Part shown: piece after piece, positions 688 through 43,330 of the stretch | How the letters are laid out: each line of letters opens with the position of its first letter | Numbering within the stretch: position 1 is the first letter of the stretch | Assembly (NCBI RefSeq): GCF_022045235.1 | Contig: NW_027266270.1 | Location: 29,636,001 to 29,700,000, forward strand | Direction of reading: 5' to 3' | Source of the DNA: Haliotis cracherodii | Taxonomy: Eukaryota | DNA: 64,000 bases | Translations under genes and position numbers: made by a program | Notes under the pieces: model-generated | Seen by the model: only the letters and a program-made list of their open reading frames with translations | What the model was told of the DNA's origin: nothing | Database searches by the model: none

Positions 688-755
688 CTTGAGAACAGTT
701 CACTTGTTAATGGTTCTCAGGTAGAAGGAGACTCAACGAATGAGATGTGCTCACT

Positions 756-4727: not shown

Positions 4728-4980
4728 TTTTATACCCTACCCACCACTATGGGTTCATCGCCTTCGATCTATTGGCTGGAAGTACTCTTTGATCCCTGGC
4801 TTCTATTAGATAGTTATTTATTCTTTGATCTATGGTTTCACAAGCCCGTGTTTTTATAGCATTGTATAAACAGTGCCAACTGACTAATCTCCTCTACACC
4901 ATGAAGCCAATAAGCTGATTGGAATTAGGATTGGCCTCTAGATTGGTACTTGCTTTGATTACATTTAAGGATGATTGGGA
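4728..4980 (-). promoter_or_regulatory. Displaced promoter of homeobox copy 1 (TATA, CCAAT boxes, TCF-like sites)
   Basis: TATAAAA at 4734-4728; CCAAT boxes at 4771, 4907, 4918, 4930, 4942, 4974; CTTTGAT at 4787, 4823, 4953. Homologous to the upstream regions of the array copies. Confidence 0.65.
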
Positions 4981-12304: not shown

Positions 12305-13660
12305 TCACAACTGGAATATGCCAGACAGGAACTCCTCACAATGCTTGGAAGCAACTACGGCTTTGGCAGATCGGGGTCTCCTGGTCCTGTGTCTCTTATT
12401 TGCAAACCACTTTCGGAGCTGAGAAAGTGTGATGCCTCCCTTGTTGGCCATGTCCTCAGCTTCTGTATGAGTTGGGTAGGGGTTGTTGAGATGCTCATGG
12501 TACCACGATTCCATCAAGGTGATGGATTCAGGATTGAGGTTTCTGCTGGCAGGACGGGACAGCTTCTTGTTTTGATTTTCTAGATTGTTAAGACTTCTCT
12601 CGATGCTGGTGAAGACCAGGTGGAGCTGGTCAGTATATGTGTTGGTCAGCCAGTTGTGGTAGTCCGTGGGAAAGAAACCATCTTGAAGACACTGTTCATG
12701 CTCCTTCTGAATAGATGACGAATGGAAGGCAAGGAAGCTGGATAGTTCTTTAACCTCTGCTGGGAACCTTGACTGGAGTGACTGAAGTCTATTCTCAAGA
12801 GCTGACTGACGATCGGAGGAAAGGCAGTTGGTAGTCTTCATTGTTGAAACTCTATCAAGTGTTTTTGAGATGATGTCATCAACAGCTTTACCAATGTCCG
12901 GTCTGGGGGAAGACGGCAGCTTGAGGTCAAGTGGTCGCGTCTCTGTGACAGGGTTGATGTCCATACATTTTGAATGTGGGCGAGTGGCAACTGATATTTG
13001 CGTTGGTGTAGACAGGGCAGGGGTGTTTGGAATCGATACTGGATGGATGGGCGGAATTGTTGGACTAGAAATCGTCCCCGTTTTGCTGGAAGGTAATAAG
13101 GATGGACTCAATGGTGCACTGGAAAACCCCAACGACTGGGCTGGAAGAAAGCATGGACTTGGTGGCAGGAATGCTGGACTCGGTGGTAGGGTGTAGCTGG
13201 AAGGCATGTAGGAGCCTGGTCTGAAGCTGGAAGTGTAGTACCTGGTGGAGCAGGGAGGGAAGAAACTGTAGGGGCTGGAGAAGCAGGTTGCCTGGAGGTA
13301 GGTGGGAGATGCCATCGGGTGGAGGCTTGAGAGAGTTGGTACATGGTGGTGGGTGTCAGCAACTGGCAGTGTGAGGGATGGCACACAACGTCTCTTGGGC
13401 AGAGGAGTTGATGTGTGCTGAGGTGCCCCTGCAATAAAGGAAATATTGTATAACATACTCAGGGTAAGCAATGGCATGGATACGGCATAGACATTACCCA
13501 ATGGCACTTTGAATAAGAAGGACTTGAACAATGAGGAGATCTCACTCATTTTATTCCATCTATAGATTAGAACTTGATACTAGAACACTATGTGGAAGGA
13601 CTTACCAATACCAGAATTGACGTGAAAGGAATCATCAACAGGAGTTTTCAAGTCAGCCAT
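12305..13660 (-). CDS. TALE-class homeobox protein, array copy 2 (392 aa): exon 1 13606-13660, exon 2 12305-13428
   Basis: Homeodomain with three-residue loop extension: LMESWYHEHLNNPYPT...QLRKWFANKRHR. A phase-1 GT..AG intron (13429-13605) joins MADLKTPVDDSFHVNSGIG to APQHTSTP in frame. Pro/Ser-rich N-terminal half. Confidence 0.9.
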
Positions 13661-13724
13661 CTTTGATTTTAGGAACGTTCACTTGTTCAAGGTTTTGAGG
13701 TAGCTGGGTATCAACAGACTCAAC

Positions 13725-14230
13725 AAGTGAGATGTGCTCACCTTCCAACTGTGGAGTTTTATGCTCTACTCACCTCTCTGGCGTCATCATCTTCAACCCC
13801 ATTGGCTGTAAGGACTCTTTGATCCATGGCTTCTTTTTGAACATTTAACTTTCTTTGATCTAGGGTTTCACTAACCAATTGCTTACTCTTTCTTTATAAC
13901 ACCAAGCCAATCAGCTAATTGGAATTAAGTTTGGCCTCTTGATTCGTCTTTGCCTTATCAACATTCAAGGATGACGAGATTATCGAGTTTTGATAGACGG
14001 TCCTTGAGTGTGTACATGACGGAAAGCGGTTGATGGGGGTTTCATTGGTTTCATTGATCTCTGGCTTCTTTAACGCTGTGTTCCCTTTATGTTTGATTGG
14101 CTCTGGTGTCTTTCGTGATACTGGTTAGTGTTTTGATAGCGTTAAACAAACATTTTCCTTTGGCGGGATTTCCTGATTGACGTATCTTTCTTTGATTTTC
14201 TCTGACACAAACCAATTAGTTTATTGGATT
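13725..14230 (-). promoter_or_regulatory. Predicted homeobox promoter (Inr-like TCACTT, CATAAAA box, CCAAT cluster, TCF-like sites), repeated in each unit
   Basis: CATAAAA at 13763-13757; CCAAT at 13801, 13875, 13907, 13918, ~14044, ~14096, ~14212, ~14223; CTTTGAT at 13817, 13853, 14190. Confidence 0.65.
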
Positions 14231-14411
14231 GATTGTTTCGACTACAAGTTGGGTTTTTCACATTAACGAATGATAATGATGTTTCGTACTACTATCTTAA
14301 GCAGCTGAACGCAACGTTAAATTACACCCAGACTACACTCTGCGGAGTTGTGGGTAGAATATTTGCATAGCAAGCATAGTACATTATAAACAATATTGTA
14401 GTCAATGCGTA

Positions 14412-15845
14412 GGGCCGCGTCCCAATCAAACCCTCTCATCCAAAACTTAATAAACCAAAATATCAGCCCCAAAAACCAAGCTCTAGCACGTAAACACCCC
14501 TTACTTACCCCAATATCCCAAAGAATAACAAACTACCTAAATGAACACCAAATTAAAAATCTTAAACAAAACTGCAAACAATCAAATATCTTCACCCCTA
14601 AACTTAAAATACCCAAAATAGACACAACACTAGCTAGCCAAATAAATAAACAAACCGACCCAAACATAGCTAAAACCACCACACTAGCATACATACACGA
14701 AAATTGGCCAAATTGGTGTCACATTTACACGGACGGATCTACAGATCCGACCTCCAAACACACAGGTTTCGGAGTCCATACCACACAACCAACTAAAACC
14801 ACACAATCCTTCCGACTCCCAAACAACCAATCAATATTCACGGCAGAACTAATGGGCATGGCCTCAGCCCTCCATAATCAAGAATAAAAAAAACACCAAA
14901 AAAATCTTAATACTTACCGACTCCCTAAGTGGACTGCAAGCTCTCCAAAATAAAAATACCAAAAACCGACCTAAATTAATAAATCAAATACTTAAAAGCT
15001 CCAACGACCTAACTAAGGCAGGCAAACAAATAACCTTCTTGTGGATACCCGCCCACGTAGGAATATACGGTAATGAAATCGCCGATAAAGCAGCTAAACT
15101 ATCCCTCAAAATCCCAGAAATAAGCTTAAACTTACCCATCTCAAAATCAGAAATTAAAAGTGTAAACAAGCAAAAAATCACCAAAAAATGGCATAACCTT
15201 TATCTAAACTCAAATAGCCAAATCAAAAAGTACTCAGCAAACCACTAACCAAACCAAAAATTCTCCATCCATCAAAAAAAATCGACAGAGTAATCACTAA
15301 ACTCCAAACAGGACACGCCAACCTAAATAACTATCTAAAAAAATTTAAAAACATACTACAGGTAACTGCCCACACTGCAAACAACTAGAAACCCAAGAAC
15401 ACGCACTCATCCACTGCACACACTACCTAACACATCGAACCGCATTACAAACCACCCTCAATCTAAACAAGGCTCTCACTCTAGAAGCAATACTAAACCC
15501 ACAAAATAAACTAGAAAACTTCAAGGCCTTAGGCGTATTCTTAATCAAAACGGAACTAATAAAACGCATCTAAAAACACTATTATCTACCAAATCAAAAT
15601 TACATAAACAAACAAACATCCACCATACCCAGCTCCCTTAGTTCTCCTCCCCAACCCCATCGGCATCTATTCCAAATCTCAAAATTCCAAAATTCTATAT
15701 AAGCAACCCCTAAAGCCCCCTCTTGGGTTGCACACACCACTTTCGCCCCTTTCGGAAACACATTAAATGGCCTGGGCGGGCCCGTGTGCGAAATACGCAT
15801 CTGTCGGAAAGCGCACGTTAAATCTCCAAAGTAAGTAAGTAAGTA
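14412..15845 (+). mobile_element. I-group LINE (subfamily A2), 5'-truncated (RNase H region to 3' end), defective
   Basis: TSD AGTCAATGCGTA at 14400-14411 and 15846-15857; (TAAG)n tail; premature stop and frameshifts. The empty site is visible in other units (e.g. ~20180). Confidence 0.95.
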
Positions 15846-18082
15846 AGTCAATGCGTAACGTTAGTAAACACAATTGTTGATCAATGTTATTCCCTATTTT
15901 GATTTATACCATATGTTCCCGTATATTGTTTTCACGTTAACAGTTGACTTGTTTGTTCGTGTGTTTGTGACAGTTGTCACCTGTGGGGCAGGATACGCTC
16001 ATCTTTTCGCCCAAACCTGGTGTCATCACTATTTGATACTGATGCATTAACGCATGCATTTGATATAGTCGGATTGGTGTAATGGACCTTTAGAAAAGAT
16101 TTCTTTGGATTAATATGAATTAATGTGCACATCCTTATATGTGATACTAGTGTTGAGGATGTGATGTTAACGTTGAATATTTGATATTAATGTTGAACGT
16201 ATCCTAGTTATGGTGAATGTATGTTTGGATGAGTATTACAGTTATATCGTGAGGTATACGACATGTCAGCTTGATGCATGTGAATTTGAAACATGTTTAA
16301 AGGTGTTTAAATTCTAAGCATGTTTGGATTAAGGGAATGTTGTGTTTAGGCTATGAAGCGATGGTTCATATCATGTGTTTAGAATCTAAACGAGTTTAGA
16401 CAGAACACACATATGTGCATACCGTTAAGGATCCAAACACGTTCCTAAACATGTTTTGTATGTGTTTACATTCTACACACATTTTTACAGTGTGGTTTAA
16501 GTGGTGAATTATATTAATTTGATAAGTATGCAATCTACCTGGCAGGATTAGTATTCGCTGTTTACTAACCTTCTGGCCGCTGTTACTAATTTAAGTTAGT
16601 CGAATCAACTAGACTTTTTTCTCAGTGTAGGGAATTAGTTAAACATAAGATAATAAGATAAACTGATTCCTTCCTGTTGAAAATGACTGACATACAAACG
16701 AATATGCGCATTTATTAGGCAGGATATGTTTGCGCTCACTTCTTCAAAACACGCTTTTGTAAAAGGGGAGTTGATAACTGATTTTAATGGATATTTTCAA
16801 TGATCCGCCAAAATCACGCATCAGACTCCATTGGGTGGAAAATGCAAAAGAGCAGTGACAAATGTGTAAATGGGTCACTGAAGAATCAGTGATAACGCCT
16901 GGTGTTCGCGAAAAAGCCATGTGAAGGAGCACATGCTTTTTGTGATAGTAATGTTAAATAAGTGATGTCAATTGTGAACGTTTCATAGTTGTGGGGATGT
17001 ATGTTTTAAGCAGTATTTCAATTGTATCGTTAGTTATAAGCCATGTCAGCTTGTTGTATGTGGACGACAAGTCCAAAGTGAAGCAGGCTTTAGATGTTTA
17101 CCGCCTCCGTAAAACCCTCGAGCTCGGACATGGCGTTGCTAAACTGTAACACATAATCAGGGCGAGTCTCGGATTCGAATCCATGTGATATTTATGCTGA
17201 ATGTGTGGTGCATAATGTTGAATGTGTTATAGTAAAGTAAACTGTACAAAATTCACGTTGCACGAGTCATAGTAGTGTAAAATTGCGATATTAATGTTGA
17301 TGTTATAGTTATGTCGGATGTGTTATAGTTATGTTGAGCTTTACTGCATATACGGTGATAATGTGTGATGCATAATGACATCCTACAACTGCCCAACTGT
17401 ATAATGCATACGTATCCTGGATAGACACCTTCCTTTTGATCTGCTTCTAGGAATGTGTACAATACAAGTGTTCCATGTTAGATTTCCGATCTCGCACCTT
17501 TGACATCGGTTGATATAGTCTCCATATAAACCAGTTTGTTTAAATATCGATATATGTATGTGTGTATTTGTGTGTGACTTGTGTATTAGCATCATATTAT
17601 TTGCAACAGCAGGTACAATTATTCCTAATTTATTATTTTATGTTCACTTTACTCTTATTGATTGTTAAATGTCCTTTGTAGGGACAGGTGTTCAAATAGG
17701 TTTAACCAGTTAACCAATCTCGTTCCTTTTTGGTAATAAATATTGTTTAAGTCATAGTCTCCATATTCAGTAATGACATATCTAAGGAACAATACAATTC
17801 TAAAACTGTGTATTAATGTGACATATTTTATTTGTCATCAAAACAATAATAACAACTTCAGCACTCACATCCACAAATATCACAGTTATAGCACAGAATA
17901 AAGATAATATAGCACTATGTTTCAGACATGGGGATTGATGTTATACAAGTGACGGTCCTCTTGAACATATATATTGCTCTTAAAGGTATTTCCAATAGCA
18001 CTACGAGGGTCTCAGACATTATCATACAGACTTCATATTTGATATCAGTTACTATCATTCAAGTGATATTATCGTCCATATT

Positions 18083-19438
18083 TCACAACTGGAATATGCC
18101 AGACAGGAACTCCTCACAATGCTTGGAAGCAACTACGGCTTTGGCAGATCGGGGTCTCCTGGTCCTGTGTCTCTTATTTGCAAACCACTTTCGGAGCTGA
18201 GAAAGTGTGATGCCTCCCTTGTTGGCCATGTCCTCAGCTTCTGTATGAGTTGGGTAGGGGTTGTTGAGATGCTCATGGTACCACGATTCCATCAAGGTGA
18301 TGGATTCAGGATTGAGGTTTCTGCTGGCAGGACGGGACAGCTTCTTGTTTTGATTTTCTAGATTGTTAAGACTTCTCTCGATGCTGGTGAAGACCAGGTG
18401 GAGCTGGTCAGTATATGTGTTGGTCAGCCAGTTGTGGTAGTCCGTGGGAAAGAAACCATCTTGAAGACACTGTTCATGCTCCTTCTGAATAGATGACGAA
18501 TGGAAGGCAAGGAAGCTGGATAGTTCTTTAACCTCTGCTGGGAACCTTGACTGGAGTGACTGAAGTCTATTCTCAAGAGCTGACTGACGATCGGAGGAAA
18601 GGCAGTTGGTAGTCTTCATTGTTGAAACTCTATCAAGTGTTTTTGAGATGATGTCATCAACAGCTTTACCAATGTCCGGTCTGGGGGAAGACGGCAGCTT
18701 GAGGTCAAGTGGTCGCGTCTCTGTGACAGGGTTGATGTCCATACATTTTGAATGTGGGCGAGTGGCAACTGATATTTGCGTTGGTGTAGACAGGGCAGGG
18801 GTGTTTGGAATCGATACTGGATGGATGGGCGGAATTGTTGGACTAGAAATCGTCCCCGTTTTGCTGGAAGGTAATAAGGATGGACTCAATGGTGCACTGG
18901 AAAACCCCAACGACTGGGCTGGAAGAAAGCATGGACTTGGTGGCAGGAATGCTGGACTCGGTGGTAGGGTGCAGCTGGAAGGCATGTAGGAGCCTGGTCT
19001 GAAGCTGGAAGTGTAGTACCTGGTGGAGCAGGGAGGGAAGAAACTGTAGGGGCTGGAGAAGCAGGTTGCCTGGAGGTAGGTGGGAGATGCCATCGGGTGG
19101 AGGCTTGAGAGAGTTGGTACATGGTGGTGGGTGTCAGCAACTGGCAGTGTGAGGGATGGCACACCACGTCTCTTGGGCAGAGGAGTTGATGTGTGCTGAG
19201 GTGCCCCTGCAATAAAGGAAATATTGTATAACATACTCAGGGTAAGCAATGGCATGGATACGGCATAGACATTACCCAATGGCACTTTGAATAAGAAGGA
19301 CTTGAACAATGAGGAGATCTCACTCATTTTATTCCATCTATAGATTAGAACTTGATACTAGAACACTATGTGGAAGGACTTACCAATACCAGAATTGACG
19401 TGAAAGGAATCATCAACAGGAGTTTTCAAGTCAGCCAT
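18083..19438 (-). CDS. TALE homeobox protein, array copy 3: exon 1 19384-19438, exon 2 18083-19206
   Basis: Same structure as copy 2; intact splice sites and ORF. Confidence 0.9.
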
Positions 19439-22416
19439 CTTTGATTTTAGGAACGTTCACTTGTTCAAGGTTCTGAGGTAGCTGGGTATCAACAGACTCA
19501 ACAAGTGAGATGTGCTCACCTTCCAACTGTGGAGTTTTATGCTCTACTCACCTCTCTGGCGTCATCATCTTCAACCCCATTGGCTGTAAGGACTCTTTGA
19601 TCCATGGCTTCTTTTTGAACATTTAACTTTCTATGATCTAGGGTTTCACTAACCAATTGCTTACTCTTTCTTTATAACACCAAGCCAATCAGCTAATTGG
19701 AATTAAGTTTGGCCTCTTGATTCGTCTTTGCCTTATCAACATTCAAGGATGACGAGATTATCGAGTTTTGATAGACGGTCCTTGAGTGTGTACATGACGG
19801 AAAGCGGTTGATGGGGGTTTCATTGGTTTCATTGATCTCTGGCTTCTTTAACGCTGTGTTCCCTTTATGTTTGATTGGCTCTGGTGTCTTTCGTGTTACT
19901 GGTTAGTGTTTTGATAGCGTTAAACAAACATTTTCCTTTGGCGGGATTTCCTGATTGACGTATCTTTCTTTGATTTTCTCTGACACAAACCAATTAGTTT
20001 ATTGGATTGATTGTTTCGACTACAAGTTGGGGTTTTTTCACATTAACGAATGATAATGATGTTTCGTACTACTATCTTAAGCAGCTGAACGCAACGTTAA
20101 ATTACACCCAGACTACAATCTGCGGAGTTGTGGGTAGAATATTTGCATAGCAAGCATAGTACATTATAAACAATATTGTAGTAAATGCGTAACGTTAGTG
20201 AACACAATTGTTGATCAATGTTATTCCCTATTTTGATTTATACCATATGTTCCCGTATATTGTTTTCACGTTAACGGTTGACTTGCTTTTTCGTGTGTTT
20301 GTGACAGTTGTCACCTGTGGGGCAGGATACGCTCATCTTTTCGCCCAAACCTGGTGTCATCACTATTTGATACTGATGCATTAACGCATGCATTTGATAT
20401 AGTCGGATTGGTGTAATGGACCTTTAGAAAAGATTTCTTTGGATTAATATGAATTAATGTGCACATCCTTATATGTGATACTAGTGTTGAGGATGTGATG
20501 TTAACGTTGAATATTTGATATTAATGTTGAACGTATCCTAGTTATGGTGAATGTATGTTTGGATGAGTATTACAGTTATATCGTGAGGTATACGACATGT
20601 CAGCTTGATGCATGTGAATTTGAAACATGTTTAAAGGTGTTTAAATTCTAAGCATGTTTGGATTAAGGGAATGTTGTGTTTAGGCTATGAAGCGATGGTT
20701 CATATCATGTGTTTAGAATCTAAACGAGTTAAGACAGAACACACAAATGTGCATACCGTTAAGGATTCAAACACGTTCCTAAACATGTTTTGTATGTGTT
20801 TACATTCTACACACATTTTTACAGTGTGGTTTAAGTGGTGAATTATATTAATTTGATAAGTATGCAATCTACCTGGCAGGATTAGTATTCGCTGTTTACT
20901 AACCTTCTGGCCGCTGTTACTAATTTAAGTTAGTCGAATCAACTAGACTTTTTTCTCAGTGTAGGGAATTAGTTAAACATAAGATAATAAGATAAACTGA
21001 TTCCTTCCTGTTGAAAATGACTGACATACAAACGAATATGCGCATTTATTAGGCAGGATATGTTTGCGCTCACTTCTTCAAAACACGCTTTTGTAAAAGG
21101 GGAGTTGATAACTGATTTTAATGGATATTTTCAATGATCCGCCAAAATCACGCATCAGACTCCATTGGGTGGAAAATGCAAAAGAGCAGTGACAAATGTG
21201 TAAATGGGTCACTGAAGAATCAGTGATAACGCCTGGTGTTCGCGAAAAAGCCATGTGAAGGAGCACATGCTTTTTGTGATAGTAATGTTAAATAAGTGAT
21301 GTCAATTGTGAACGTTTCATAGTTGTGGGGATGTATGTTTTAAGCAGTATTTCAATTGTATCGTTAGTTATAAGCCATGTCAGCTTGTTGTATGTGGACG
21401 ACAAGTCCAAAGTGAAGCAGGCTTTAGATGTTTACCGCCTCCGTAAAACCCTCGAGCTCGGACATGGCGTTGCTAAACTGTAACACATAATCAGGGCGAG
21501 TCTCGGATTCGAATCCATGTGATATTTATGCTGAATGTGTGGTGCATAATGTTGAATGTGTTATAGTAAAGTAAACTGTACAAAATTCACGTTGCACGAG
21601 TCATAGTAGTGTAAAATTGCGATATTAATGTTGATGTTATAGTTATGTCGGATGTGTTATAGTTATGTTGAGCTTTACTGCATATACGGTGATAATGTGT
21701 GATGCATAATGACATCCTACAACTGCCCAACTGTATAATGCATACGTATCCTGGATAGACACCTTCCTTTTGATCTGCTTCTAGGAATGTGTACAATACA
21801 AGTGTTCCATGTTAGATTTCCGATCTCGCACCTTTGACATCGGTTGATATAGTCTCCATATAAACCAGTTTGTTTAAATATCGATATATGTATGTGTGTA
21901 TTTGTGTGTGACTTGTGTATTAGCATCATATTATTTGCAACAGCAGGTACAATTATTCCTAATTTATTATTTTATGTTCACTTTACTCTTATTGATTGTT
22001 AAATGTCCTTTGTAGGGACAGGTGTTCAAATAGGTTTAACCAGTTAACCAATCTCGTTCCTTTTTGGTAATAAATATTGTTTAAGTCATAGTCTCCATAT
22101 TCAGTAATGACATATCTAAGGAACAATACAATTCTAAAACTGTGTATTAATGTGACATATTTTATTTGTCATCAAAACAATAATAACAACTTCAGCACTC
22201 ACATCCACAAATATCACAGTTATAGCACAGAATAAAGATAATATAGCACTATGTTTCAGACATGGGGATTGATGTTATACAAGTGACGGTCCTCTTGAAC
22301 ATATATATTGCTCTTAAAGGTATTTCCAATAGCACTACGAGGGTCTCAGACATTATCATACAGACTTCATATTTGATATCAGTTACTATCATTCAAGTGA
22401 TATTATCGTCCATATT

Positions 22417-23772
22417 TCACAACTGGAATATGCCAGACAGGAACTCCTCACAATGCTTGGAAGCAACTACGGCTTTGGCAGATCGGGGTCTCCTGGTCCT
22501 GTGTCTCTTATTTGCAAACCACTTTCGGAGCTGAGAAAGTGTGATGCCTCCCTTGTTGGCCATGTCCTCAGCTTCTGTATGAGTTGGGTAGGGGTTGTTG
22601 AGATGCTCATGGTACCACGATTCCATCAAGGTGATGGATTCAGGATTGAGGTTTCTGCTGGCAGGACGGGACAGCTTCTTGTTTTGATTTTCTAGATTGT
22701 TAAGACTTCTCTCGATGCTGGTGAAGACCAGGTGGAGCTGGTCAGTATATGTGTTGGTCAGCCAGTTGTGGTAGTCCGTGGGAAAGAAACCATCTTGAAG
22801 ACACTGTTCATGCTCCTTCTGAATAGATGACGAATGGAAGGCAAGGAAGCTGGATAGTTCTTTAACCTCTGCTGGGAACCTTGACTGGAGTGACTGAAGT
22901 CTATTCTCAAGAGCTGACTGACGATCGGAGGAAAGGCAGTTGGTAGTCTTCATTGTTGAAACTCTATCAAGTGTTTTTGAGATGATGTCATCAACAGCTT
23001 TACCAATGTCCGGTCTGGGGGAAGACGGCAGCTTGAGGTCAAGTGGTCGCGTCTCTGTGACAGGGTTGATGTCCATACATTTTGAATGTGGGCGAGTGGC
23101 AACTGATATTTGCGTTGGTGTAGACAGGGCAGGGGTGTTTGGAATCGATACTGGATGGATGGGCGGAATTGTTGGACTAGAAATCGTCCCCGTTTTGCTG
23201 GAAGGTAATAAGGATGGACTCAATGGTGCACTGGAAAACCCCAACGACTGGGCTGGAAGAAAGCATGGACTTGGTGGCAGGAATGCTGGACTCGGTGGTA
23301 GGGTGCAGCTGGAAGGCATGTAGGAGCCTGGTCTGAAGCTGGAAGTGTAGTACCTGGTGGAGCAGGGAGGGAAGAAACTGTAGGGGCTGGAGAAGCAGGT
23401 TGCCTGGAGGTAGGTGGGAGATGCCATCGGGTGGAGGCTTGAGAGAGTTGGTACATGGTGGTGGGTGTCAGCAACTGGCAGTGTGAGGGATGGCACACCA
23501 CGTCTCTTGGGCAGAGGAGTTGATGTGTGCTGAGGTGCCCCTGCAATAAAGGAAATATTGTATAACATACTCAGGGTAAGCAATGGCATGGATACGGCAT
23601 AGACATTACCCAATGGCACTTTGAATAAGAAGGACTTGAACAATGAGGAGATCTCACTCATTTTATTCCATCTATAGATTAGAACTTGATACTAGAACAC
23701 TATGTGGAAGGACTTACCAATACCAGAATTGACGTGAAAGGAATCATCAACAGGAGTTTTCAAGTCAGCCAT
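22417..23772 (-). CDS. TALE homeobox protein, array copy 4: exon 1 23718-23772, exon 2 22417-23540
   Basis: Protein identical to copy 3. Confidence 0.9.
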
Positions 23773-26731
23773 CTTTGATTTTAGGAACGTTCACTTGTTC
23801 AAGGTTCTGAGGTAGCTGGGTATCAACAGACTCAACAAGTGAGATGTGCTCACCTTCCAACTGTGGAGTTTTATGCTCTACTCACCTCTCTGGCGTCATC
23901 ATCTTCAACCCCATTGGCTGTAAGGACTCTTTGATCCATGGCTTCTTTTTGAACATTTAACTTTCTATGATCTAGGGTTTCACTAACCAATTGCTTACTC
24001 TTTCTTTATAACACCAAGCCAATCAGCTAATTGGAATTAAGTTTGGCCTCTTGATTCGTCTTTGCCTTATCAACATTCAAGGATGACGAGATTATCGAGT
24101 TTTGATAGACGGTCCTTGAGTGTGTACATGACGGAAAGCGGTTGATGGGGGTTTCATTGGTTTCATTGATCTCTGGCTTCTTTAACGCTGTGTTCCCTTT
24201 ATGTTTGATTGGCTCTGGTGTCTTTCGTGTTACTGGTTAGTGTTTTGATAGCGTTAAACAAACATTTTCCTTTGGCGGGATTTCCTGATTGACGTATCTT
24301 TCTTTGATTTTCTCTGACACAAACCAATTAGTTTATTGGATTGATTGTTTCGACTACAAGTTGGGGTTTTTTCACATTAACGAATGATAATGATGTTTCG
24401 TACTACTATCTTAAGCAGCTGAACGCAACGTTAAATTACACCCAGACTACAATCTGCGGAGTTGTGGGTAGAATATTTGCATAGCAAGCATAGTACATTA
24501 TAAACAATATTGTAGTAAATGCGTAACGTTAGTGAACACAATTGTTGATCAATGTTATTCCCTATTTTGATTTATACCATATGTTCCCGTATATTGTTTT
24601 CACGTTAACGGTTGACTTGCTTTTTCGTGTGTTTGTGACAGTTGTCACCTGTGGGGCAGGATACGCTCATCTTTTCGCCCAAACCTGGTGTCATCACTAT
24701 TTGATACTGATGCATTAACGCATGCATTTGATATAGTCGGATTGGTGTAATGGACCTTTAGAAAAGATTTCTTTGGATTAATATGAATTAATGTGCACAT
24801 CCTTATATGTGATACTAGTGTTGAGGATGTGATGTTAACGTTGAATATTTGATATTAATGTTGAACGTATCCTAGTTATGGTGAATGTATGTTTGGATGA
24901 GTATTACAGTTATATCGTGAGGTATACGACATGTCAGCTTGATGCATGTGAATTTGAAACATGTTTAAAGGTGTTTAAATTCTAAGCATGTTTGGATTAA
25001 GGGAATGTTGTGTTTAGGCTATGAAGCGATGGTTCATATCATGTGTTTAGAATCTAAACGAGTTAAGACAGAACACACAAATGTGCATACCGTTAAGGAT
25101 TCAAACACGTTCCTAAACATGTTTTGTATGTGTTTACATTCTACACACATTTTTACAGTGTGGTTTAAGTGGTGAATTTTATTAATTTGATAAGTATGCA
25201 ATCTACCTGGCAGGATTAGTATTCGCTGTTTACTAACTTTCTGGCCGCTGTTACTAATTTAAGTTAGTCGAATCAACTAGACTTTTTTCTCAGTGTAGGG
25301 AATTAGTTAAACATAAGATAATAAGATAAACTGATTCCTTCCTGTTGAAAATGACTGACATACAAACGAATATGCGCATTTATTAGGCAGGATATGTTTG
25401 CGCTCACTTCTTCAAAACACGCTTTTGTAAAAGGGGAGTTGATAACTGATTTTAATGGATATTTTCAATGATCCGCCAAAATCACGCATCAGACTCCATT
25501 GGGTGGAAAATGCAAAAGAGCAGTGACAAATGTGTAAATGGGTCACTGAAGAATCAGTGATAACGCCTGGTGTTCGCGAAGGAGCACATGCTTTTTGTGA
25601 TAGTAATGTTAAATAAGTGATGTCAATTGTGAACGTTTCATAGTTGTGGGGATGTATGTTTTAAGCAGTATTTCAATTGCATCGTTAGTTATAAGCCATG
25701 TCAGCTTGTTGTATGTGGACGACAAGTCCAAAGTGAAGCAGGCTTTAGATGTTTACCGCCTCCGTAAAACCCTCGAGCTCGGACATGGCGTTGCTAAACT
25801 GTAACACATAATCAGGGCGAGTCTCGGATTCGAATCCATGTGATATTTATGCTGAATGTGTGGTGCATAATGTTGAATGTGTTATAGTAAAGTAAACTGT
25901 ACAAAATTCACGTTGCACGAGTCATAGTAGTGTAAAATTGCGATATTAATGTTGATGTTATAGTTATGTCGGATGTGTTATAGTTATGTTGAGCTTTACT
26001 GCATATATGGTGATAATGTGTGATGCATAATGACATCCTACAACTGCCCAACTGTATAATGCATACGTATCCTGGATAGACACCTTCCTTTTGATCTGCT
26101 TCTAGGAATGTGTACAATACAAGTGTTCCATGTTAGATTTCCGATCTCGCACCTTTGACATCGGTTGATATAGTCTCCATATAAACCAGTTTGTTTAAAT
26201 ATCGATATATGTATGTGTGTATTTGTGTGTGACTTGTGTATTAGCATCATATTATTTGCAAGAGCAGGTACAATTATTCCTAATTTATTATTTTATGTTC
26301 ACTTTACTCTTATTGATTGTTAAATGTCCTTTGTAGGGACAGGTGTTCAAATAGGTTTAACCTGTTAACCAATCTCGTTCCTTTTTGGTAATAAATATTG
26401 TTTAAGTCATAGTCTCCATATTCAGTAATGACATATCTAAGGAACAATACAATTCTAAAACTGTGTATTAATGTGACATATTTTATTTGTCATCAAAACA
26501 ATAATAACAACTTCAGCACTCACATCCACAAATATCACAGTTATAGCACAGAATAAAGATAATATAGCACTATGTTTCAGACATGGGGATTGATGTTATA
26601 CAAGTGACGGTCCTCTTGAACATAAATTGAAGAGGTATTTCCAATAGCACTACGAGGGTCTCAGACATTATCATACAGACTTCATATGTGATATCAGTTA
26701 CTATCATTCAAGTGATATTATCGTCCATATT

Positions 26732-28087
26732 TCACAACTGGAATATGCCAGACAGGAACTCCTCACAATGCTTGGAAGCAACTACGGCTTTGGCAGATCG
26801 GGGTCTCCTGGTCCTGTGTCTCTTATTTGCAAACCACTTTCGGAGCTGAGAAAGTGTGATGCCTCCCTTGTTGGCCATGTCCTCAGCTTCTGTATGAGTT
26901 GGGTAGGGGTTGTTGAGATGCTCATGGTACCACGATTCCATCAAGGTGATGGATTCAGGATTGAGGTTTCTGCTGGCAGGACGGGACAGCTTCTTGTTTT
27001 GATTTTCTAGATTGTTAAGACTTCTCTCGATGCTGGTGAAGACCAGGTGGAGCTGGTCAGTATATGTGTTGGTCAGCCAGTTGTGGTAGTCCGTGGGAAA
27101 GAAACCATCTTGAAGACACTGTTCATGCTCCTTCTGAATAGATGACGAATGGAAGGCAAGGAAGCTGGATAGTTCTTTAACCTCTGCTGGGAACCTTGAC
27201 TGGAGTGACTGAAGTCTATTCTCAAGAGCTGACTGACGATCGGAGGAAAGGCAGTTGGTAGTCTTCATTGTTGAAACTCTATCAAGTGTTTTTGAGATGA
27301 TGTCATCAACAGCTTTACCAATGTCCGGTCTGGGGGAAGACGGCAGCTTGAGGTCAAGTGGTCGCGTCTCTGTGACAGGGTTGATGTCCATACATTTTGA
27401 ATGTGGGCGAGTGGCAACTGATATTTGCGTTGGTGTAGACAGGGCAGGGGTGTTTGGAATCGATACTGGATGGATGGGCGGAATTGTTGGACTAGAAATC
27501 GTCCCCGTTTTGCTGGAAGGTAAGAAGGATGGACTCAATGGTGCACTGGAAAACCCCAACGACTGGGCTGGAAGAAAGCATGGACTTGGTGGCAGGAATG
27601 CTGGACTCGGTGGTAGGGTGTAGCTGGAAGGCATGTAGGAGCCTGGTCTGAAGCTGGAAGTGTAGTACCTGGTGGAGCAGGGAGGGAAGAAACTGTAGGG
27701 GCTGGAGAAGCAGGTTGCCTGGAGGTAGGTGGGAGATGCCATCGGGTGGAGGCTTGAGAGAGTTGGTACATGGTGGTGGGTGTCAGCAACTGGCAGTGTG
27801 AGGGATGGCACACAACGTCTCTTGGGCAGAGGAGTTGATGTGTGCTGAGGTGCCCCTGCAATAAAGGAAATATTGTATAACATACTCAGGGTAAGCAATG
27901 GCATGGATACGGCATAGACATTACCCAATGGCACTTTGAATAAGAAGGACTTGAACAATGAGGAGATCTCACTCATTTTATTCCATCTATAGATTAGAAC
28001 TTGATACTAGAACACTATGTGGAAGGACTTACCAATACCAGAATTGACGTGAAAGGAATCATCAACAGGAGTTTTCAAGTCAGCCAT
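26732..28087 (-). CDS. TALE homeobox protein, array copy 5: exon 1 28033-28087, exon 2 26732-27855
   Basis: Same structure; intact splice sites and ORF. Confidence 0.9.
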
Positions 28088-31059
28088 CTTTGATTTTAGG
28101 AACGTTCACTTGTTCAAGGTTCTGAGGTAGCTGGGTATCAACAGACTCAACAAGTGAGATGTGCTCACCTTCCAACTGTGGAGTTTTATGCTCTACTCAC
28201 CTCTCTGGCGTCATCATCTTCAACCCCATTGGCTGTAAGGACTCTTTGATCCATGGCTTCTTTTTGAACATTTAACTTTCTTTGATCTAGGGTTTCACTA
28301 ACCAATTGCTTACTCTTTCTTTATAACACCAAGCCAATAAGCTAATTGGAATTAAGTTTGGCCTCTTGATTCGTCTTTGCCTTATCAACATTCAAGGATG
28401 ACGAGATTATCGAGTTTTGATAGACGGTCCTTGAGTGTGTACATGACGGAAAGCGGTTGATGGGGGTTTCATTGGTTTCATTGATCTCTGGCTTCTTTAA
28501 CGCTGTGTTCCCTTTATGTTTGATTGGCTCTGGTGTCTTTCGTGTTACTGGTTAGTGTTTTGATAGCGTTAAACAAACATTTTCCTTTGGCGGGATTTCC
28601 TGATTGACGTATCTTTCTTTGATTTTCTCTGACACAAACCAATTAGTTTATTGGATTGATTGTTTCGACTACAAGTTGGGGTTTTTTCACATTAACGAAT
28701 GATAATGATGTTTCGTACTACTATCTTAAGCAGCTGAACGCAACGTTAAATTACACCCAGACTACAATCTGCGGAGTTGTGGGTAGAATATTTGCATAGC
28801 AAGCATAGTACATTATAAACAATATTGTAGTAAATGCGTAACGTTAGTGAACACAATTGTTGATCAATGTTATTCCCTATTTTGATTTATACCATATGTT
28901 CCCGTATATTGTTTTCACGTTAACGGTTGACTTGCTTTTTCGTGTGTTTGTGACAGTTGTCACCTGTGGGGCAGGATACGCTCATCTTTTCGCCCAAACC
29001 TGGTGTCATCACTATTTGATACTGATGCATTAACGCATGCATTTGATATAGTCGGATTGGTGTAATGGACCTTTAGAAAAGATTTCTTTGGATTAATATG
29101 AATTAATGTGCACATCCTTATATGTGATACTAGTGTTGAGGATGTGATGTTAACGTTGAATATTTGATATTAATGTTGAACGTATCCTAGTTATGGTGAA
29201 TGTATGTTTGGATGAGTATTACAGTTATATCGTGAGGTATACGACATGTCAGCTTGATGCATGTGAATTTGAAACATGTTTAAAGGTGTTTAAATTCTAA
29301 GCATGTTTGGATTAAGGGAATGTTGTGTTTAGGCTATGAAGCGATGGTTCATATCATGTGTTTAGAATCTAAACGAGTTAAGACAGAACACACAAATGTG
29401 CATACCGTTAAGGATTCAAACACGTTCCTAAACATGTTTTGTATGTGTTTACATTCTACACACATTTTTACAGTGTGGTTTAAGTGGTGAATTATATTAA
29501 TTTGATAAGTATGCAATCTACCTGGCAGGATTAGTATTCGCTGTTTACTAACTTTCTGGCCGCTGTTACTAATTTAAGTTAGTCGAATCAACTAGATTTT
29601 TTTCTCAGTGTAGGGAATTAGTTAAACATAAGATAATAAGATAAACTGATTCCTTCCTGTTGAAAATGACTGACATACAAACGAATATGCGCATTTATTA
29701 GGCAGGATATGTTTGTGCTCACTTCTTCAAAACACGCTTTTGTAAAAGGGGAGTTGATAACTGATTTTAATGGATATTTTCAATGATCTGCCAAAATCAC
29801 GCATCAGACTCCATTGGGTGGAAAATGCAAAATAGCAGTGACAAATGTGTAAATGGGTCACTGAAAAATCAGTGATAACGCCTGGTGTTCGCGAAAAAGC
29901 ATGTGAAGGAGCACATGCTTTTTGTGATAGTAATGTTAAATAAGTGATGTCAATTGTGAACGTATCATAGTTGTGGGGATGTATGTTTTAAGCAGTATTT
30001 CAATTGTATCGTTAGTTATAAACCATGTCAGCTTGTTGTATGGGGACGACAAGTCCAAAGTGAAGCAGGCTTTAGATGTTTACCGCCTCCGTAAAACCCT
30101 CGAGCTCGGACATGGCGTTGCTAAACTGTAACACATAATCAGGGCGAGTCTCGGATTCGAATCCATGTGATATTTATGCTGAATGTGTGGTGCATAATGT
30201 TGAATGTGTTATAGTAAAGTAAAATGTACAAAATTCACGTTGCACGAGTCATAGTAGTGTAAAATTGCGATATTAATGTTGATGTTATAGTTATGTCGGA
30301 TGTGTTATAGTTATGTTGAGCTTTTCTGCATATGTGGTGATAATGTGTGATGCATAATGACATCCTACAACTGCCCAACTGTATAATGCATACGTATCCT
30401 GGATAGACACCTTCCTTTTGATCTGCTTCTAGGAATGTGTAAAATACAAGTGTTCCATTTTAGATTTCCGATCTCGCACCTTTGACATCGGTTGATATAG
30501 TCTCCATTTAAACCAGTTTGTTTAAATATCGATATATGTATGTGTGTATTTGTGTGTGACTTGTGTATTAGCATCATGTTATTTGCAAGAGCAGGTACAA
30601 TTATTCCTAATTTATTATTTTATGTTCACTTTACTCTTATTGATTGTTAAATGTCCTTTGTAGGGACAGGTGTTCAAATAGGTTTAACCAGTTAACCAAT
30701 CTCGTTCCTTTTTGGTAATAAATATTGTTTAAATCATAGTCTCCATATTCAGTATTGACATATCTAAGGAACAATACAATTCTAAAACTGTGTATTAATG
30801 TGACATATTTTATTTGTCATCAAAACAATAATAACAACTTCAGCACTCACATCCACAAATATCACAGTTATAGCACAGAATAAAGATAATATAGCACTAT
30901 GTTTCAGACATGGGGATTGATGTTATACAAGTGACGGTCCTCTTGAACATAAATTGAAGAGGTATTTTACAATAGCACTACGAGGGTCTCAGACATTATC
31001 ATACAGACTTCATATGTGATATCAGTTACTATCATTCAAGTGATATTATCGTCCATATT

Positions 31060-32263
31060 TCACAACTGGAATATGCCAGACAGGAACTCCTCACAATGCT
31101 TGGAAGCAACTACGGCTTTGGCAGATCGGGGTCTCCTGGTCCTGTGTCTCTTATTTGCAAACCACTTTCGGAGCTGAGAAAGTGTGATGCCTCCCTTGTT
31201 GGCCATGTCCTCAGCTTCTGTATGAGTTGGGTAGGGGTTGTTGAGATGCTCATGGTACCACGATTCCATCAAGGTGATGGATTCAGGATTGAGGTTTCTG
31301 CTGGCAGGACGGGACAGCTTCTTGTTTTGATTTTCTAGATTGTTAAGACTTCTCTCGATGCTGGTGAAAACCAGGTGGAGCTGGTCAGTATATGTGTTGG
31401 TCAGCCAGTTGTGGTAGTCCGTGGGAAAGAAACCATCTTGAAGACACTGTTCATGCTCCTTCTGAATAGATGACGAATGGAAGGCAAGGAAGCTGGATAG
31501 TTCTTTAACCTCTGCTGGGAACCTTGACTGGAGTGACTGAAGTCTATTCTCAAGAGCTGACTGACGATCGGAGGAAAGGCAGTTGGTAGTCTTCATTGTT
31601 GAAACTCTATCAAGTGTTTTTGAGATGATGTCATCAACAGCTTTACCAATGTCCGGTCTGGGGGAAGACGGCAGCTTGAGGTCAAGTGGTCGCGTCTCTG
31701 TGACAGGGTTGATGTCCATACATTTTGAATGTGGGCGAGTGGCAACTGATATTTGCGTTGGTGTAGACAGGGCAGGGGTGTTTGGAATCGATACTGGATG
31801 GATGGGCGGAATTGTTGGACTAGAAATCGTCCCCGTTTTGCTGGAAGGTAAGAAGGATGGACTCAATGGTGCACTGGAAAACCCCAACGACTGGGCTGGA
31901 AGAAAGCATGGACTTGGTGGCAGGAATGCTGGACTCGGTGGTAGGGTGCAGCTGGAAGGCATATAGGAGCCTGGTCTGAAGCTGGAAGTGTAGTACCTGG
32001 TGGAGCAGGGAGGGAAGAAACTGTAGGGGCTGGAGAAGCAGGTTGCCTGGAGGTAGGTGGGAGATGCTATCGGGTGGAGGCTTGAGAGAGTTGGTACATG
32101 GTGGTGGGTGTCAGCAACTGGCAGTGTGAGGGATGGCACACCACGTCTCTTGGGCAGAGGAGTTGATGTGTGCTGAGGTGCTCCAGAACACTATGTGGAA
32201 TGACTTACCAATACTAGAATTGACGTGAAAGGAATCATCAACAGGAGTTTTCAAGTCAGCCAT
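31060..32263 (-). pseudogene. TALE homeobox copy 6, probable pseudogene
   Basis: The intron is reduced to 25 nt (32184-32208) and has lost its acceptor, so read-through frameshifts. The promoter is separated from the gene by 10.6 kb of LINEs. Exon 2 is still open. Confidence 0.8.
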
Positions 32264-32344
32264 CTTGGATTTGAAGAACGGTTTGTTCAAGGTTCTGAGG
32301 TAGCTGTGTATCAACAGACTCAACAAGTGAGATGTGCTCACCTT

Positions 32345-33328
32345 ACTTACTTACTTACTTACTTACTTTGGAGATTTAACGTGTGCTTTCCGACAGGTGC
32401 GTATTTCGCACACGGGCCCGCCCAGGCCATTTAATGTGTTTCCGAAAGGGGCGAAAGTGGTGTGTGCAACCCAAGAGTGGGCTTTAGGGTTTGCTTATAT
32501 AGAATTTGGGAAGTTTTTGAGATTTGGAATAGATGCCGATGGAGTTGGGGAGGAGAACTAAGGGAGCTGGGTAGGGTAGATGTTTGTTTGTTTATGTGAT
32601 TTTGATTTGGTAGGTTATTGTGTTTTTAGATGCGTTTTCCGTTTTGATTAAGAATACGCCTAAGGCCTTGAAGTTTTCTAGTTTATTTTGTGGGTTTAGT
32701 ATTGCTTCTAGAGTGAGAGCCTTGTTTAGATTGAGGGTGGTTTGTAATGCGGTTCGATGTGTTAGGTAGTGTGTGCAGTGGATGAGTGCGTGTTCTTGGG
32801 TTTCTAGTTGTTTGCAGTGTGGGCAGTTACCTGTAGTGTGATTTTTTAAATTTTTTTAGGTGGTTATTTAGGTTGGTGTGTCCTGTTTGGAGTTTAGTGA
32901 TTACTCTGTCGATTTTTTTTGATTGATGTAGAATTTTTGGTTTGGTTAGTGGTTTGCTGAGCACTCTTTTGATTTGGCTATTTGAGTTTAGATATAGGCT
33001 ATGCCATTTTTGTGATTTTTTGCTTGTTTACACTTTTAATTTCTGATTTTGAGATGGGTAAGTTTAAGCTTATTTCTAGGATTTTGAGGGATAGTTTAGC
33101 TGCTTTATCGGCGTTTTCATTACCGTATATTCCTACGTGGGCGGGTATCCACAAGAAGGTTATTTGTTTGCCTGCCTTACACTAAATGGTCTGGCCAGGC
33201 CCGTGTGCGAAATTCGCTACAGTCGGAAAGCGCACGTTAAATCTTCTATATCAGTCAGTCAGTCAGGGTATCTTTGGAGGCTCCCCAGTTAGAGCCAATT
33301 AGGCATCTTAGGGTGTTTAGGTCTGTAC
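32345..33328 (-). mobile_element. I-group LINE (subfamily A2), 5'-truncated and internally deleted; first member of the stack
   Basis: (TAAG)n tail abuts TGCTCACCTT (32335-32344), which recurs at 33329-33338. About 825 bp are deleted internally and replaced by a foreign fragment. Confidence 0.9.
33180..33266 (+). mobile_element. 3' terminus of a third related LINE family or LINE-tailed SINE, with a (TCAG)4 tail
   Basis: AAATGGTCTGGCCAGGCCCGTGTGCG...CAGTCGGAAAGCGCACGTTAAATCT matches the A/B 3' motif but with distinct variants and a different tail; opposite orientation. Confidence 0.8.
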
Positions 33329-33338
33329 TGCTCACCTT

Positions 33339-36300: not shown

Positions 36301-37128
36301 TGGTTAATTTCTTCGCAAAAAATTTTCCAGTCTCTTGTTTTAGCTGTTTTAACTAAGCTTTGTACTTTGTGATTTAGTTCACGTGCTATCTTTGGGTGTT
36401 TGAAGTCACGTTTGGCTTTATTGAATGCGGATTTGCTTTAACGCCTAGTTTGTTCTATCTCCCCGTTCCACCAAGGAACCGAGGGTTTGCCTATGCTGGT
36501 TATTTTGAAAGGAATGGAGTTTTTAGCTGCGTTTATCATGCAGTCAGTGGGGTTTTTGCAGTAGATTTCGGGGTCGTTACTTTCTAGGTCAGCTAGGTTA
36601 GCCTGGTTGCAAATTTCCTGAAATTTGTCCCAGTCGGCTTTGTTGAAGTGGAATTTAGGTTCCTGGTTTGGGGCTGGTGTTGGGATGTTTACGTCTCCTG
36701 TAGTTATATTTATGGGGAAGTGGTCACTACCTAGTGGTACCCCGTGTACTTCCCATTGAATACTTTGGGCTAAATCTGGGGTGCATATGGTTAAGTCGAT
36801 AGCCGACATTTTGTGGTGTATTTTGTCGTATCTAGTAGGTTGGTTGTTATTTATTAGTATTAGGTCATTTTGTTCTATGCATTCTGAGATGAGTTTTCCG
36901 TGTTTATCTATTTTATCTTCTATACCCCAGGTAGGGTGGTGGGCATTAAAGTCTCCTAGGAAGATTGTAGATTTATTGCCTATTTGGTGGAGGGTGTTTA
37001 AATCCTCAGGTTTGACCTGTTTTTCTACCCAGTGGTATATATTTATGATATTAATTTTTTGGTTGCTATTTGTTATTTGGATACTGTTTGCTTCTAGGTT
37101 TGGTGTGTTTATTTTTAGTTCTTTGTTC
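33339..37128 (-). mobile_element. I-group LINE subfamily B (clearly diverged from A), 5'-truncated in the APE domain, multiply frameshifted; second member of the stack
   Basis: ORF2 fragments at 36438-37130, 35541-35795, 34810-35499 and 33849-34820 carry the same APE/RT/RNase H motifs. (AAGT)n tail. Flanked by ACTGCTCACCTT at 33327-33338 and 37129-37140. Confidence 0.93.
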
Positions 37129-37411
37129 ACTGCTCACCTTACTTACTTACTTACTTTGGAGATTTAACGTGCGCTTTCCGACTGATGAGTATTTCGCACA
37201 CGGGCCCGGCCAGGCCATTTAATGTGTTTCCGAAAGGGGCGAGGGTGGTCTGTGCAACCCAAGAGGGGGCTTTAGGGGTTGCTTATATAGAATTTTGGAA
37301 TTTTGAGATTTGGAATAGATGCCGATGGGGTTGGGGAGGAGAACTAAGGGAGCTGGGTATGGTGGATGATTGTTTGTTTATGTGATTTTGATTTGGTAGG
37401 TTATTATGGTT

Positions 37412-41167: not shown

Positions 41168-41210
41168 TATTGGTTTCGGGTGATTGGTGATTTAGTTTTT
41201 AGTTTTTATT

Positions 41211-42853: not shown

Positions 42854-42944
42854 ATTGTTTGGGTGTTGTGTTGGAGAGCGTGTGTTGTGGTAAGTGGTGG
42901 TGGAGTGTTTTGGGGAGGTGAGTTGGTTTGTTGTTTTTACTTGG

Positions 42945-43330
42945 ACTGCTCACCTTCCATTTGTGGAGTTTTATGCTCTACTAACTTCTTTCGCTTCATC
43001 ACCTTAAACCTCATTGGCTGTAAGGACTCTTTGATCCATGGCTTCTATTTGAACATTTAACTTTCTTTGATCTAGGGTTTCACTAACCAATTAACTACTT
43101 TTTCTTAACAACATCAATCCAATCAGCTGATTGGAATTTCAGCGATCTCTGGCTTCTTTAACACTGCGCTCCCTTTATGTTTGATTGGCTCTGGTTTCTT
43201 TCATGTCTCGTGTCATTGGTTAGTGTTTTGACAGCGTTAAACAAACAGTATCCATTGGCGGGATATTCCTGATTAGCTTATCTTTCTTTGATTTTCTCTT
43301 TTACAAACCAATCAGTTTATTGGATTGTTT
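42945..43330 (-). promoter_or_regulatory. Original promoter of homeobox copy 6, now directly upstream of the full-length LINE
   Basis: Homologous to 13741-14230. CATAAAA at 42975-42969, CCAAT at 43013, CTTTGAT at 43029, 43065 and 43286. Confidence 0.75.

What the first reader, a model, noticed from the sequence alone, without database searches (positions are those of the whole stretch)
12305..32263. Recently amplified tandem array of a lineage-specific TALE homeobox gene
There are five near-identical copies (1-3 aa differences among copies 2-5) in ~4.33-kb units, plus a diverged paralog at the window start. The homeodomain (HLNNPYP, WFANKR) is TALE class but does not read like canonical Pbx, Meis, Irx, Tgif, Pknox or Mkx. 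It fits the fast-evolving spiralian TALE/SPILE expansions. Short, single-intron, tandemly amplified homeobox genes are typical of the earliest zygotic regulators (compare sea-urchin pmar1/micro1 and mammalian DUX arrays).
Basis: partly seen in the sequence, partly recalled or inferred. Interest (0 to 1): 0.7.

Follow-up and report, generated by a model that had tools for sequence, protein, structure and literature searches.

The report
Embryo gene array with TATA-seeking LINE
This is a row of four intact and one broken copy of an abalone gene from a known family of early-embryo regulators, likely kept multi-copy to boost output in the first cell divisions, and a jumping gene has landed again and again about 20 bases behind these genes' TATA boxes, likely by homing on the transcription-start machinery.

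Summary
The array is real but of a known kind. It holds five tandem copies (unit about 4.3 kb) of a 392-aa PADRE + TALE-homeodomain gene, an abalone SPILE A/C gene. The matching locus in another abalone is already catalogued, and near-identical tandem SPILE arrays are published for limpet and chiton (PMC8524836). Correction: copy 5 is broken (splice acceptor deleted, 10.6 kb of LINE between TATA box and ATG). Copies cluster by species, so the array is homogenised and re-amplified within each abalone. (1) A second SPILE gene forms a 61-copy array on contig C45. (2) A young APE-RT-RNase H LINE inserts in sense about 20 nt behind TATA boxes. It sits there in copy 5 (three stacked), in the paralog, and in 13 of 61 C45 units. 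In a pre-registered validation set, 17 of 22 target families had the motif (background 7.9%, SINE control 4 of 20). My literature searches found no such Pol II TATA-anchored LINE; this scan has noted it before in other genomes (unreviewed notes). Tethering to TBP or the pre-initiation complex is inferred, not shown.

The parts
12305..13660 (-). SPILE A/C copy 1, intact (exon 1 13606-13660, exon 2 12305-13428; 392 aa; PADRE about aa 228-309, TALE homeodomain about aa 312-374)
   Evidence: spliced contig from a related species
13757..13763 (-). TATA-like box (CATAAAA) of copy 1; TATATAAAA at the same position in paralog L032
   Evidence: contig 5' end at 13718
14412..15847 (+). 5'-truncated LINE with 12-bp TSD, upstream of copy 1, behind a TATAAAC on the + strand; unique to this unit
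18083..19438 (-). SPILE A/C copy 2, intact
22417..23772 (-). SPILE A/C copy 3, intact; CDS identical to copy 2, unit differs by 6 SNPs and a 13-bp deletion
26732..28087 (-). SPILE A/C copy 4, intact (= P0003)
31060..32263 (-). SPILE A/C copy 5, broken: intron cut to 25 nt without acceptor; promoter displaced by LINE stack
32342..33327 (-). Innermost LINE at copy-5 start site (5'-truncated, internally rearranged, with an inverted 3'-end fragment at 33179-33267)
33329..37128 (-). Second LINE (subfamily B, 82% identical to A) at the same target
37131..42946 (-). Third LINE (subfamily A, ORF1 + APE-RT-RNase H ORF2, each frameshifted; 5' UTR truncated) at the same target
42969..42975 (-). Displaced TATA-like box (CATAAAA) of copy 5; TSD starts 20 nt after its first base
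1..687 (-). 5' half of diverged paralog (394 aa, P0006; continues to G000:C7:29635324)
748..4703 (-). Young 5'-truncated LINE (open 1225-aa ORF2 frame) at the paralog's start site, 11-bp TSD
4728..4734 (-). TATAAAA of the paralog, 20 nt before the TSD

Best explanation
The array is four intact and one broken tandem copy of an abalone SPILE A/C transcription-factor gene (PADRE helices plus TALE homeodomain), likely homogenised by unequal crossing-over and gene conversion and likely serving as a dose booster at the 4-16-cell stage, whose TATA promoters are hit at a fixed position by a LINE that likely docks on the TBP-bound start site. SHOWN: gene structure and family; within-species homogeneity; unique marks on each unit; purifying selection between paralogs; sense LINE insertions with 8-14-bp TSDs whose 3' junction lies 17-23 nt after a TATA start, which puts the LINE's 5' end about 27-34 nt after it. 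INFERRED: origin from two older tandem paralogs by unequal crossover within the coding region (copy 1 has a 20%-diverged 3' flank, copy 5 a 16%-diverged promoter); early zygotic expression and blastomere-fate function (by family); benefit of dosage; tethering by TBP or the pre-initiation complex; borrowing of the host promoter by inserted LINEs; silencing of the hit copies.
For: Family. Synteny: the first two genes lie 7,132 bp apart here versus 7,077 bp for catalogued H. discus hannai A/C genes. Concerted evolution: 1-4 aa within this species, 27-30 aa to the two H. rufescens copies; H. rubra 5 and H. asinina 8 models, clustering by species. Mosaic SNP sharing between units. dN/dS between paralogs: 0.14-0.22 in PADRE, 0.31-0.41 in homeodomain + C-terminus, 0.43-0.51 in the N-terminus. 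LINE rule: window and motif written down before the test. Validation 17 of 22 target families (21 of 27 events) with TATAWAW at <=1 mismatch; background 7.85%; antisense mirror 3 of 22; exact motif 10 of 22 versus 0.66%. tRNA-SINE control 4 of 20 and 0 of 20, Fisher p = 5e-4. C45 array: 13 of 61 units carry a sense insertion at the start site, one of them tail-only; they come from several LINE lineages. A sequence-only model predicts 0.04-0.9 hits there for 2,000-50,000 LINE copies; P(>=5) = 5e-10 to 2e-3.
Against: No embryonic expression data for this gene. The one spliced contig comes from a related species, from a run only guessed to be RNA, stage unknown. Copy number was not confirmed by reads. 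H. rufescens has only two models, so high copy number is not required in every abalone. All three variable coding sites among copies 1-4 are non-synonymous, and 5 of 59 C45 models are truncated, which fits tolerant turnover. 16 of 42 target families lack the motif. About half of the tails called were dropped for lacking a clean TSD. Most TATA-positive targets could not be shown to be real promoters: Pfam found only transposon domains downstream, plus sub-threshold sugar-transporter and other weak hits at one locus. In C45 the promoter TATA is the unit's only exact TATAWAW, so that array alone cannot separate sequence from function. No protein interaction was tested.
Confidence: 0.7

Rival explanations
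1. Copy number is neutral churn: one or two copies suffice and the array expands and decays by unequal crossover with no dosage benefit.
For: Copy number varies 2-8 across abalones; copy 5 is dead; within-array changes are non-synonymous; LINE hits are tolerated in 13 of 61 C45 units.
Against: Independent near-identical A/C arrays recur in limpet, chiton, vent snail and several abalones; 54 of 59 C45 models are intact.
Confidence: 0.3
2. The LINE finds its site without host factors: its endonuclease or ORF2 reads a bendable TATA-like tract about two helical turns upstream of the nick, helped by open chromatin.
For: Degenerate matches (GATAAAC, TTAAAAA, TATTTAT) sit at the same offset. One hit lies antisense about 650 bp upstream of copy 1, with no known gene behind it.
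Against: Repeated hits on the same promoters far exceed a sequence-only expectation. In the C7 unit three exact TATAWAW sites are unhit while a CATAAAA promoter took three insertions (small numbers). The geometry puts the LINE's 5' end where transcription should start.
Confidence: 0.35
3. The array is an assembly expansion of one or two genes.
For: Copies 2 and 3 have identical CDS; no read-depth check was possible.
Against: Each unit has private SNPs, indels or LINEs; separate assemblies of other abalones hold their own species-specific arrays.
Confidence: 0.06
4. The gene is a diverged duplicate of canonical Pbx with PADRE as a remnant PBC domain.
For: Best PDB homeodomain hits are Pbx/Exd (E 9e-13, versus 2e-8 for Pknox/Meis).
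Against: True Pbx with PBC lies on C5. The PADRE profile scores host PBC at 3.6 bits; 5 of 300 shuffles reach that and the reversed sequence scores higher. No PBC hit in Pfam.
Confidence: 0.04

Closest known systems
SPILE A/C clade (PADRE + TALE homeodomain; NfSPILE-A/-C, CgTALE9-13, H. discus hannai HDSC00981 genes; PMC8524836, PMC5322547, PMC6118893)
   Same: PADRE upstream of a single TALE homeodomain; lineage-specific near-identical tandem copies (Lottia 8, chiton 7); same locus layout as the catalogued abalone genes.
   Different: This subtype lacks the two introns that flank and split PADRE in the C45/L031 type. The sister gene's array has 61 units, which the paper saw only as 3.25-kb-spaced fragments and partly set aside as probable alleles.
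TRE5-A / NLTR-A of dictyostelids and Ty3 of yeast (PMC5911963, passages)
   Same: Position- and orientation-specific integration at a transcription start region; TRE5-A ORF1 binds TBP/Brf1/Bdp1 and Ty3 needs TBP + Brf1.
   Different: Those target Pol III genes (TRE5 antisense, 40-54 bp upstream). This LINE has RNase H, inserts in sense behind TATA boxes of protein-coding genes and repeats, and only about 60% of sites follow the rule.
Drosophila I-element (PMC10018349, passages)
   Same: Related APE-RT-RNase H architecture (recalled); de novo insertions enriched at promoters.
   Different: Only 1.74-fold enrichment, about 150 bp upstream of the TSS, no strand bias; here the offset is nucleotide-scale and sense-only.
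DUX4/D4Z4, sea-urchin pmar1/micro1 and ETCHbox tandem arrays (recalled; PMC8208926 search listing only)
   Same: Tandemly amplified, homogenised homeobox genes tied to the earliest zygotic programme.
   Different: Those are PRD-class; these are TALE-class, intron-containing genes. An analogy, not membership.

Membership tests
TALE class | 63-aa homeodomain with three-residue loop extension and PYP | tested here: met
   Homeobox_KN 47.5 bits; ungapped alignment to Pbx1; model matches Meis2/Exd at rmsd 0.8-1.1
SPILE A/C clade | [quoted passage not shown] | tested here: met
   52.8 bits, E 2e-18; by-eye match to published alignment; three helices, pLDDT about 95
SPILE A/C clade | Homeodomain groups with SPILE genes, outside canonical TALE families | tested here: met
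   Quick tree, 90 rows x 63 columns: abalone clade 98 within a 75-row SPILE-type group at SH-aLRT 84; careful search unfinished, A/C subclade not resolved
SPILE A/C clade | Correspondence to catalogued abalone A/C genes | tested here: met
SPILE A/C clade | Zygotic, blastomere-restricted expression from the 4-16-cell stage | not testable with these tools
   Published for limpet and mussel; no staged abalone RNA laid
SPILE-C / TALE-XV orthology | Supported clade with NfSPILE-C | tested here: inconclusive
   Adjacent in the figure text of Figs S9/S11, no support value readable for the joint node; NfSPILE-C not among retrieved proteins
Pbx | PBC domain | tested here: not met
Meis/Pknox | Meis_PKNOX_N domain | tested here: not met
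   Absent here, present in the genome's Meis-like ORF L049
I-group (Nimb-like) LINE | ORF1 with zinc knuckle; ORF2 APE-RT-RNase H; short-repeat 3' tail; TSD | tested here: met
   relatives in molluscs and fish; the clade's features are partly recalled
I-group (Nimb-like) LINE | RT phylogeny with named clade members | not tested
   No named reference RTs were available from the tools
Pol III-targeting retroelements (TRE5, Ty3) | Fixed distance and orientation to a promoter element | tested here: met
Pol III-targeting retroelements (TRE5, Ty3) | Target is a tRNA/5S gene | tested here: not met
   Targets are SPILE promoters and repeats; Rfam found no RNA gene at the insertion sites of 10 loci scanned, only two sub-threshold hits elsewhere
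Pol III-targeting retroelements (TRE5, Ty3) | Binding of an element protein to TBP/TFIIIB | not testable with these tools
   No experiment possible; no complex prediction run

The most novel reading that the evidence does not exclude
An animal LINE family tethers to the RNA polymerase II pre-initiation complex and drops its 5' end on the start site of TATA promoters that are active before the germ line is set aside. It would thereby borrow the promoters of the first zygotic genes. The SPILE arrays (5 and 61 copies) would be both its launch pad and, through redundancy, a buffer against it, so its insertions would map the zygotic-activation promoters of a mollusc.
Probability: 0.35. Interest if true: 0.85.

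Novelty: new variant of a known kind. Interest (0 to 1): 0.6.

Why it matters
The array alone adds one more case to a published pattern (about 0.35 on its own). The 61-copy sister array is far larger than the 7-8-copy SPILE arrays reported in PMC8524836, and makes dosage at spiralian genome activation testable. Nucleotide-scale, oriented targeting of Pol II TATA promoters by a LINE was not found in five literature searches, where the position-specific cases all concern Pol III genes. If host-tethered, it is a new targeting route, a recurrent source of regulatory knock-outs in early developmental genes, and a footprint of promoter occupancy in germ-line-competent cells.

Tried and rejected
Read-depth copy number: raw run X18 gave near-zero depth on unique DNA and on the gene (only repeats mapped), so it is uninformative. 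No RNA holder was listed for the unit (no evidence either way). X12 contigs cover intron and upstream DNA, so they were not used as expression evidence. Sequence-specific targeting of SPILE genes by the LINE: rejected, because 3' flanks of 30 young copies are mostly unrelated. PADRE as diverged PBC or Meis domain: not supported. Fold searches of PADRE gave only generic helical bundles, Z <= 9.2. C45 insertions as one insertion plus deletions: rejected as the sole cause, since they fall in several LINE lineages and one is identical over 532 nt to window 748-4703; some do share ancestry (five q5298 copies, two q1051 copies) and were counted once. Rfam found no hammerhead in the recurrent target repeats; the fold shows only one stem. 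Sequence look-up in earlier findings returned nothing. Dropped rows: discovery 37 loci gave 43 tails, 29 with TSD >= 7, and 24 events after removing nested, <8-bp and duplicate sites. Validation 73 of 80 hits (2 window copies and 5 unfetched left out) gave 77 tails (42 TSD, 26 none, 9 open-ended; 9 loci without a tail) and 27 events. SINE control: 20 of 30 loci resolved. The supplement zip of PMC6118893 was not opened and Morino et al. 2017 was not read; both may settle clade naming.
Full report
Observation. Self-comparison shows a ~4.3-kb unit repeated across 12.0-32.3 kb at 96-99% identity. Copies 1-4 each give a two-exon, 392-aa ORF on the minus strand. They differ at three sites, all non-synonymous and N-terminal of PADRE. 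The copy-4 protein equals P0003, labelled Haliotis cracherodii by NCBI, so the host is an abalone. Copy 5 keeps 25 nt of intron without an acceptor and stops at 50 aa if unspliced. Its TATA-like box sits 10.6 kb away behind three LINEs. A contig from a related species (run X13, RNA by guess) joins 13426 to 13605, skipping the predicted intron, and ends 5' at 13718, just inside the predicted start region.

Is it real? Units carry private marks: copies 2 and 3 differ by 6 SNPs and a 13-bp deletion, copy 4 by about 30 SNPs, and only the first spacer holds a LINE. SNP sharing is mosaic, as expected from conversion. Copy 1's 3' flank is 20% diverged and copy 5's promoter 16% diverged from the internal units. 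This suggests that the repeated unit is a chimera of two older neighbours made by unequal crossover (inference). Other abalones have their own arrays: 2 models in H. rufescens, 5 in H. rubra, 8 in H. asinina. They cluster by species: 1-4 aa within this species, 27-30 aa to H. rufescens. Read depth could not be measured.

Family. The homeodomain is TALE, nearest Pbx among solved structures. Upstream lies an ~85-aa three-helix domain that scores 52.8 bits against a profile of other spiralian proteins and matches the published PADRE alignment by eye. The genome's canonical TALE genes lie elsewhere, and a quick homeodomain tree places the array among SPILE-type sequences, with weak support. PMC8524836 lists eight A/C genes in H. 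discus hannai (read: text parts 1-2 of 6, passages, supplement 1 parts 2 and 5, supplement 2 part 12 and search hits). Two of them are 7,077 bp apart on one strand with a third reversed further on; here the spacing is 7,132 bp with the same layout. That paper reports near-identical tandem A/C genes in Lottia (8) and chiton (7), and zygotic onset at 4-16 cells. PMC5322547 (passages) defines PADRE and finds most novel oyster TALEs expressed from egg to blastula. PMC6118893 (part 2 of 8, passages) extends PADRE to further clades. PMC12550047 (passages) finds over ten unclassified TALEs up-regulated at annelid genome activation. Purifying selection between paralogs is strongest in PADRE. The array is therefore a new member of a known kind.

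A much larger sister array. A second PADRE-TALE gene (4 exons, 357 aa) is repeated 61 times over ~230 kb of G000:C45 (units mostly 3.3 kb). 54 of 59 modelled copies are intact, with 30 distinct CDS and a mean of 4.9 nt differences. The 3.25-kb-spaced fragments that PMC8524836 partly set aside as probable alleles fit such an array.

The LINE. The insertions encode APE-RT-RNase H, end in (TAAG)n and belong to an abundant young family (1,297-1,794 first-look candidates, lower bounds). Flanks are mostly unrelated in sequence. Yet in copy 5, the paralog and the C45 gene, whose promoter is unrelated, the 3' junction lies about 20-22 nt after the start of a TATA-like box, always in sense. After a discovery set (12 of 23 target families), I fixed the test in the notebook and ran it on new loci. 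Result: 17 of 22 families had TATAWAW within one mismatch starting at -23..-17, against 7.85% background, 3 of 22 on the mirrored strand and 3 of 22 at -45..-39. The exact motif appeared in 10 of 22 against 0.66%. TSDs are 8-14 bp, so the element's 5' end falls about 27-34 nt after the TATA start, where Pol II initiation is expected (established knowledge). A tRNA-SINE control gave 4 of 20 and 0 of 20. In C45, 13 of 61 units carry an insertion at the start site, from at least five and probably 7-9 events. One event is only a tail between 10-bp TSDs; the blast search found no LINE insertion elsewhere in the unit, though one full-length copy's 5' end lies in the spacer with the promoter missing. 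With ~1.7 million exact TATAWAW sites in the genome, sequence alone cannot explain this reuse.

Mechanism. Most likely, the gene is a short, TATA-driven, early zygotic regulator whose copy number floats upward under concerted evolution. The LINE's insertion complex is likely positioned by TBP or the pre-initiation complex, nicks just upstream of the start site, and leaves a sense copy under the host TATA box while cutting the gene off from it. Heritable hits imply these promoters are accessible in cells that still feed the germ line, which fits 4-16-cell expression (inference). The main rival is direct DNA-shape reading plus open chromatin.

Comparison and novelty. Known position-specific elements target Pol III genes through TFIIIB (PMC5911963, passages). 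The fly I-element shows only loose promoter enrichment (PMC10018349, passages). PMC4758252 and PMC9341512 (passages) describe no such preference. Five searches of the open library found no Pol II TATA-anchored LINE; subscription journals and Repbase notes are not covered. This scan's unreviewed notes report similar behaviour in mussel, fish and histone-gene loci, and two single cases in this genome. I saw them after my test and do not count them as support.

Verdict. The array is ordinary for its family; the 61-copy sister array and the TATA-anchored LINE lift interest to 0.6.

Noticed in passing
G000:C45:7,642,000-7,870,500 (L036-L046, L088-L090, L171-L185): 61-unit tandem array of a second PADRE-TALE gene; 54 of 59 models intact; 13 units with a LINE at the start site.
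   Followed up: yes
G000:C7:29,596,000-29,604,600 (L031, L032): Two further SPILE A/C genes upstream of the window: one of the C45 type and one paralog of the array gene with an undisrupted TATATAAAA promoter.
   Followed up: partly
window 12305-13660 versus L031 and L040: The array gene type lacks introns 2 and 3 found around PADRE in the C45/L031 type and keeps only a phase-1 first intron; possible intron loss through a cDNA.
   Followed up: no
L002, L093, L109, L129, L150 and others; L019, L027, L103, L122, L133: Two repeat families with a TATA box followed by a hammerhead-like motif and AATAAA take repeated LINE insertions at one position; probably Penelope-like terminal repeats (recalled).
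   Followed up: partly
L049:3492-4991 (G000:C44): Intronless 500-aa Meis-like ORF on a 397-kb contig, besides the intron-containing Meis on C45; possible intact retrocopy.
   Followed up: no
window 48225-49496: 424-aa open frame with a glycosyl hydrolase-like 10 domain (E 6e-57) and no intron within it.
   Followed up: no
window 55399-55917; 52453-52766; 61770-62477: Mariner-type transposase fragment; 24-bp minisatellite (13 copies); 171-bp tandem repeat (4.3 copies).
   Followed up: no
window 19439-20191: Eight CCAAT/ATTGG boxes within 570 bp upstream of the ATG of the array gene; none in the C45 promoter.
   Followed up: no
P0043 cluster: Patella vulgata has a run of near-identical SPILE-like loci (LOC126824384-392) on one contig, another tandem array.
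   Followed up: no
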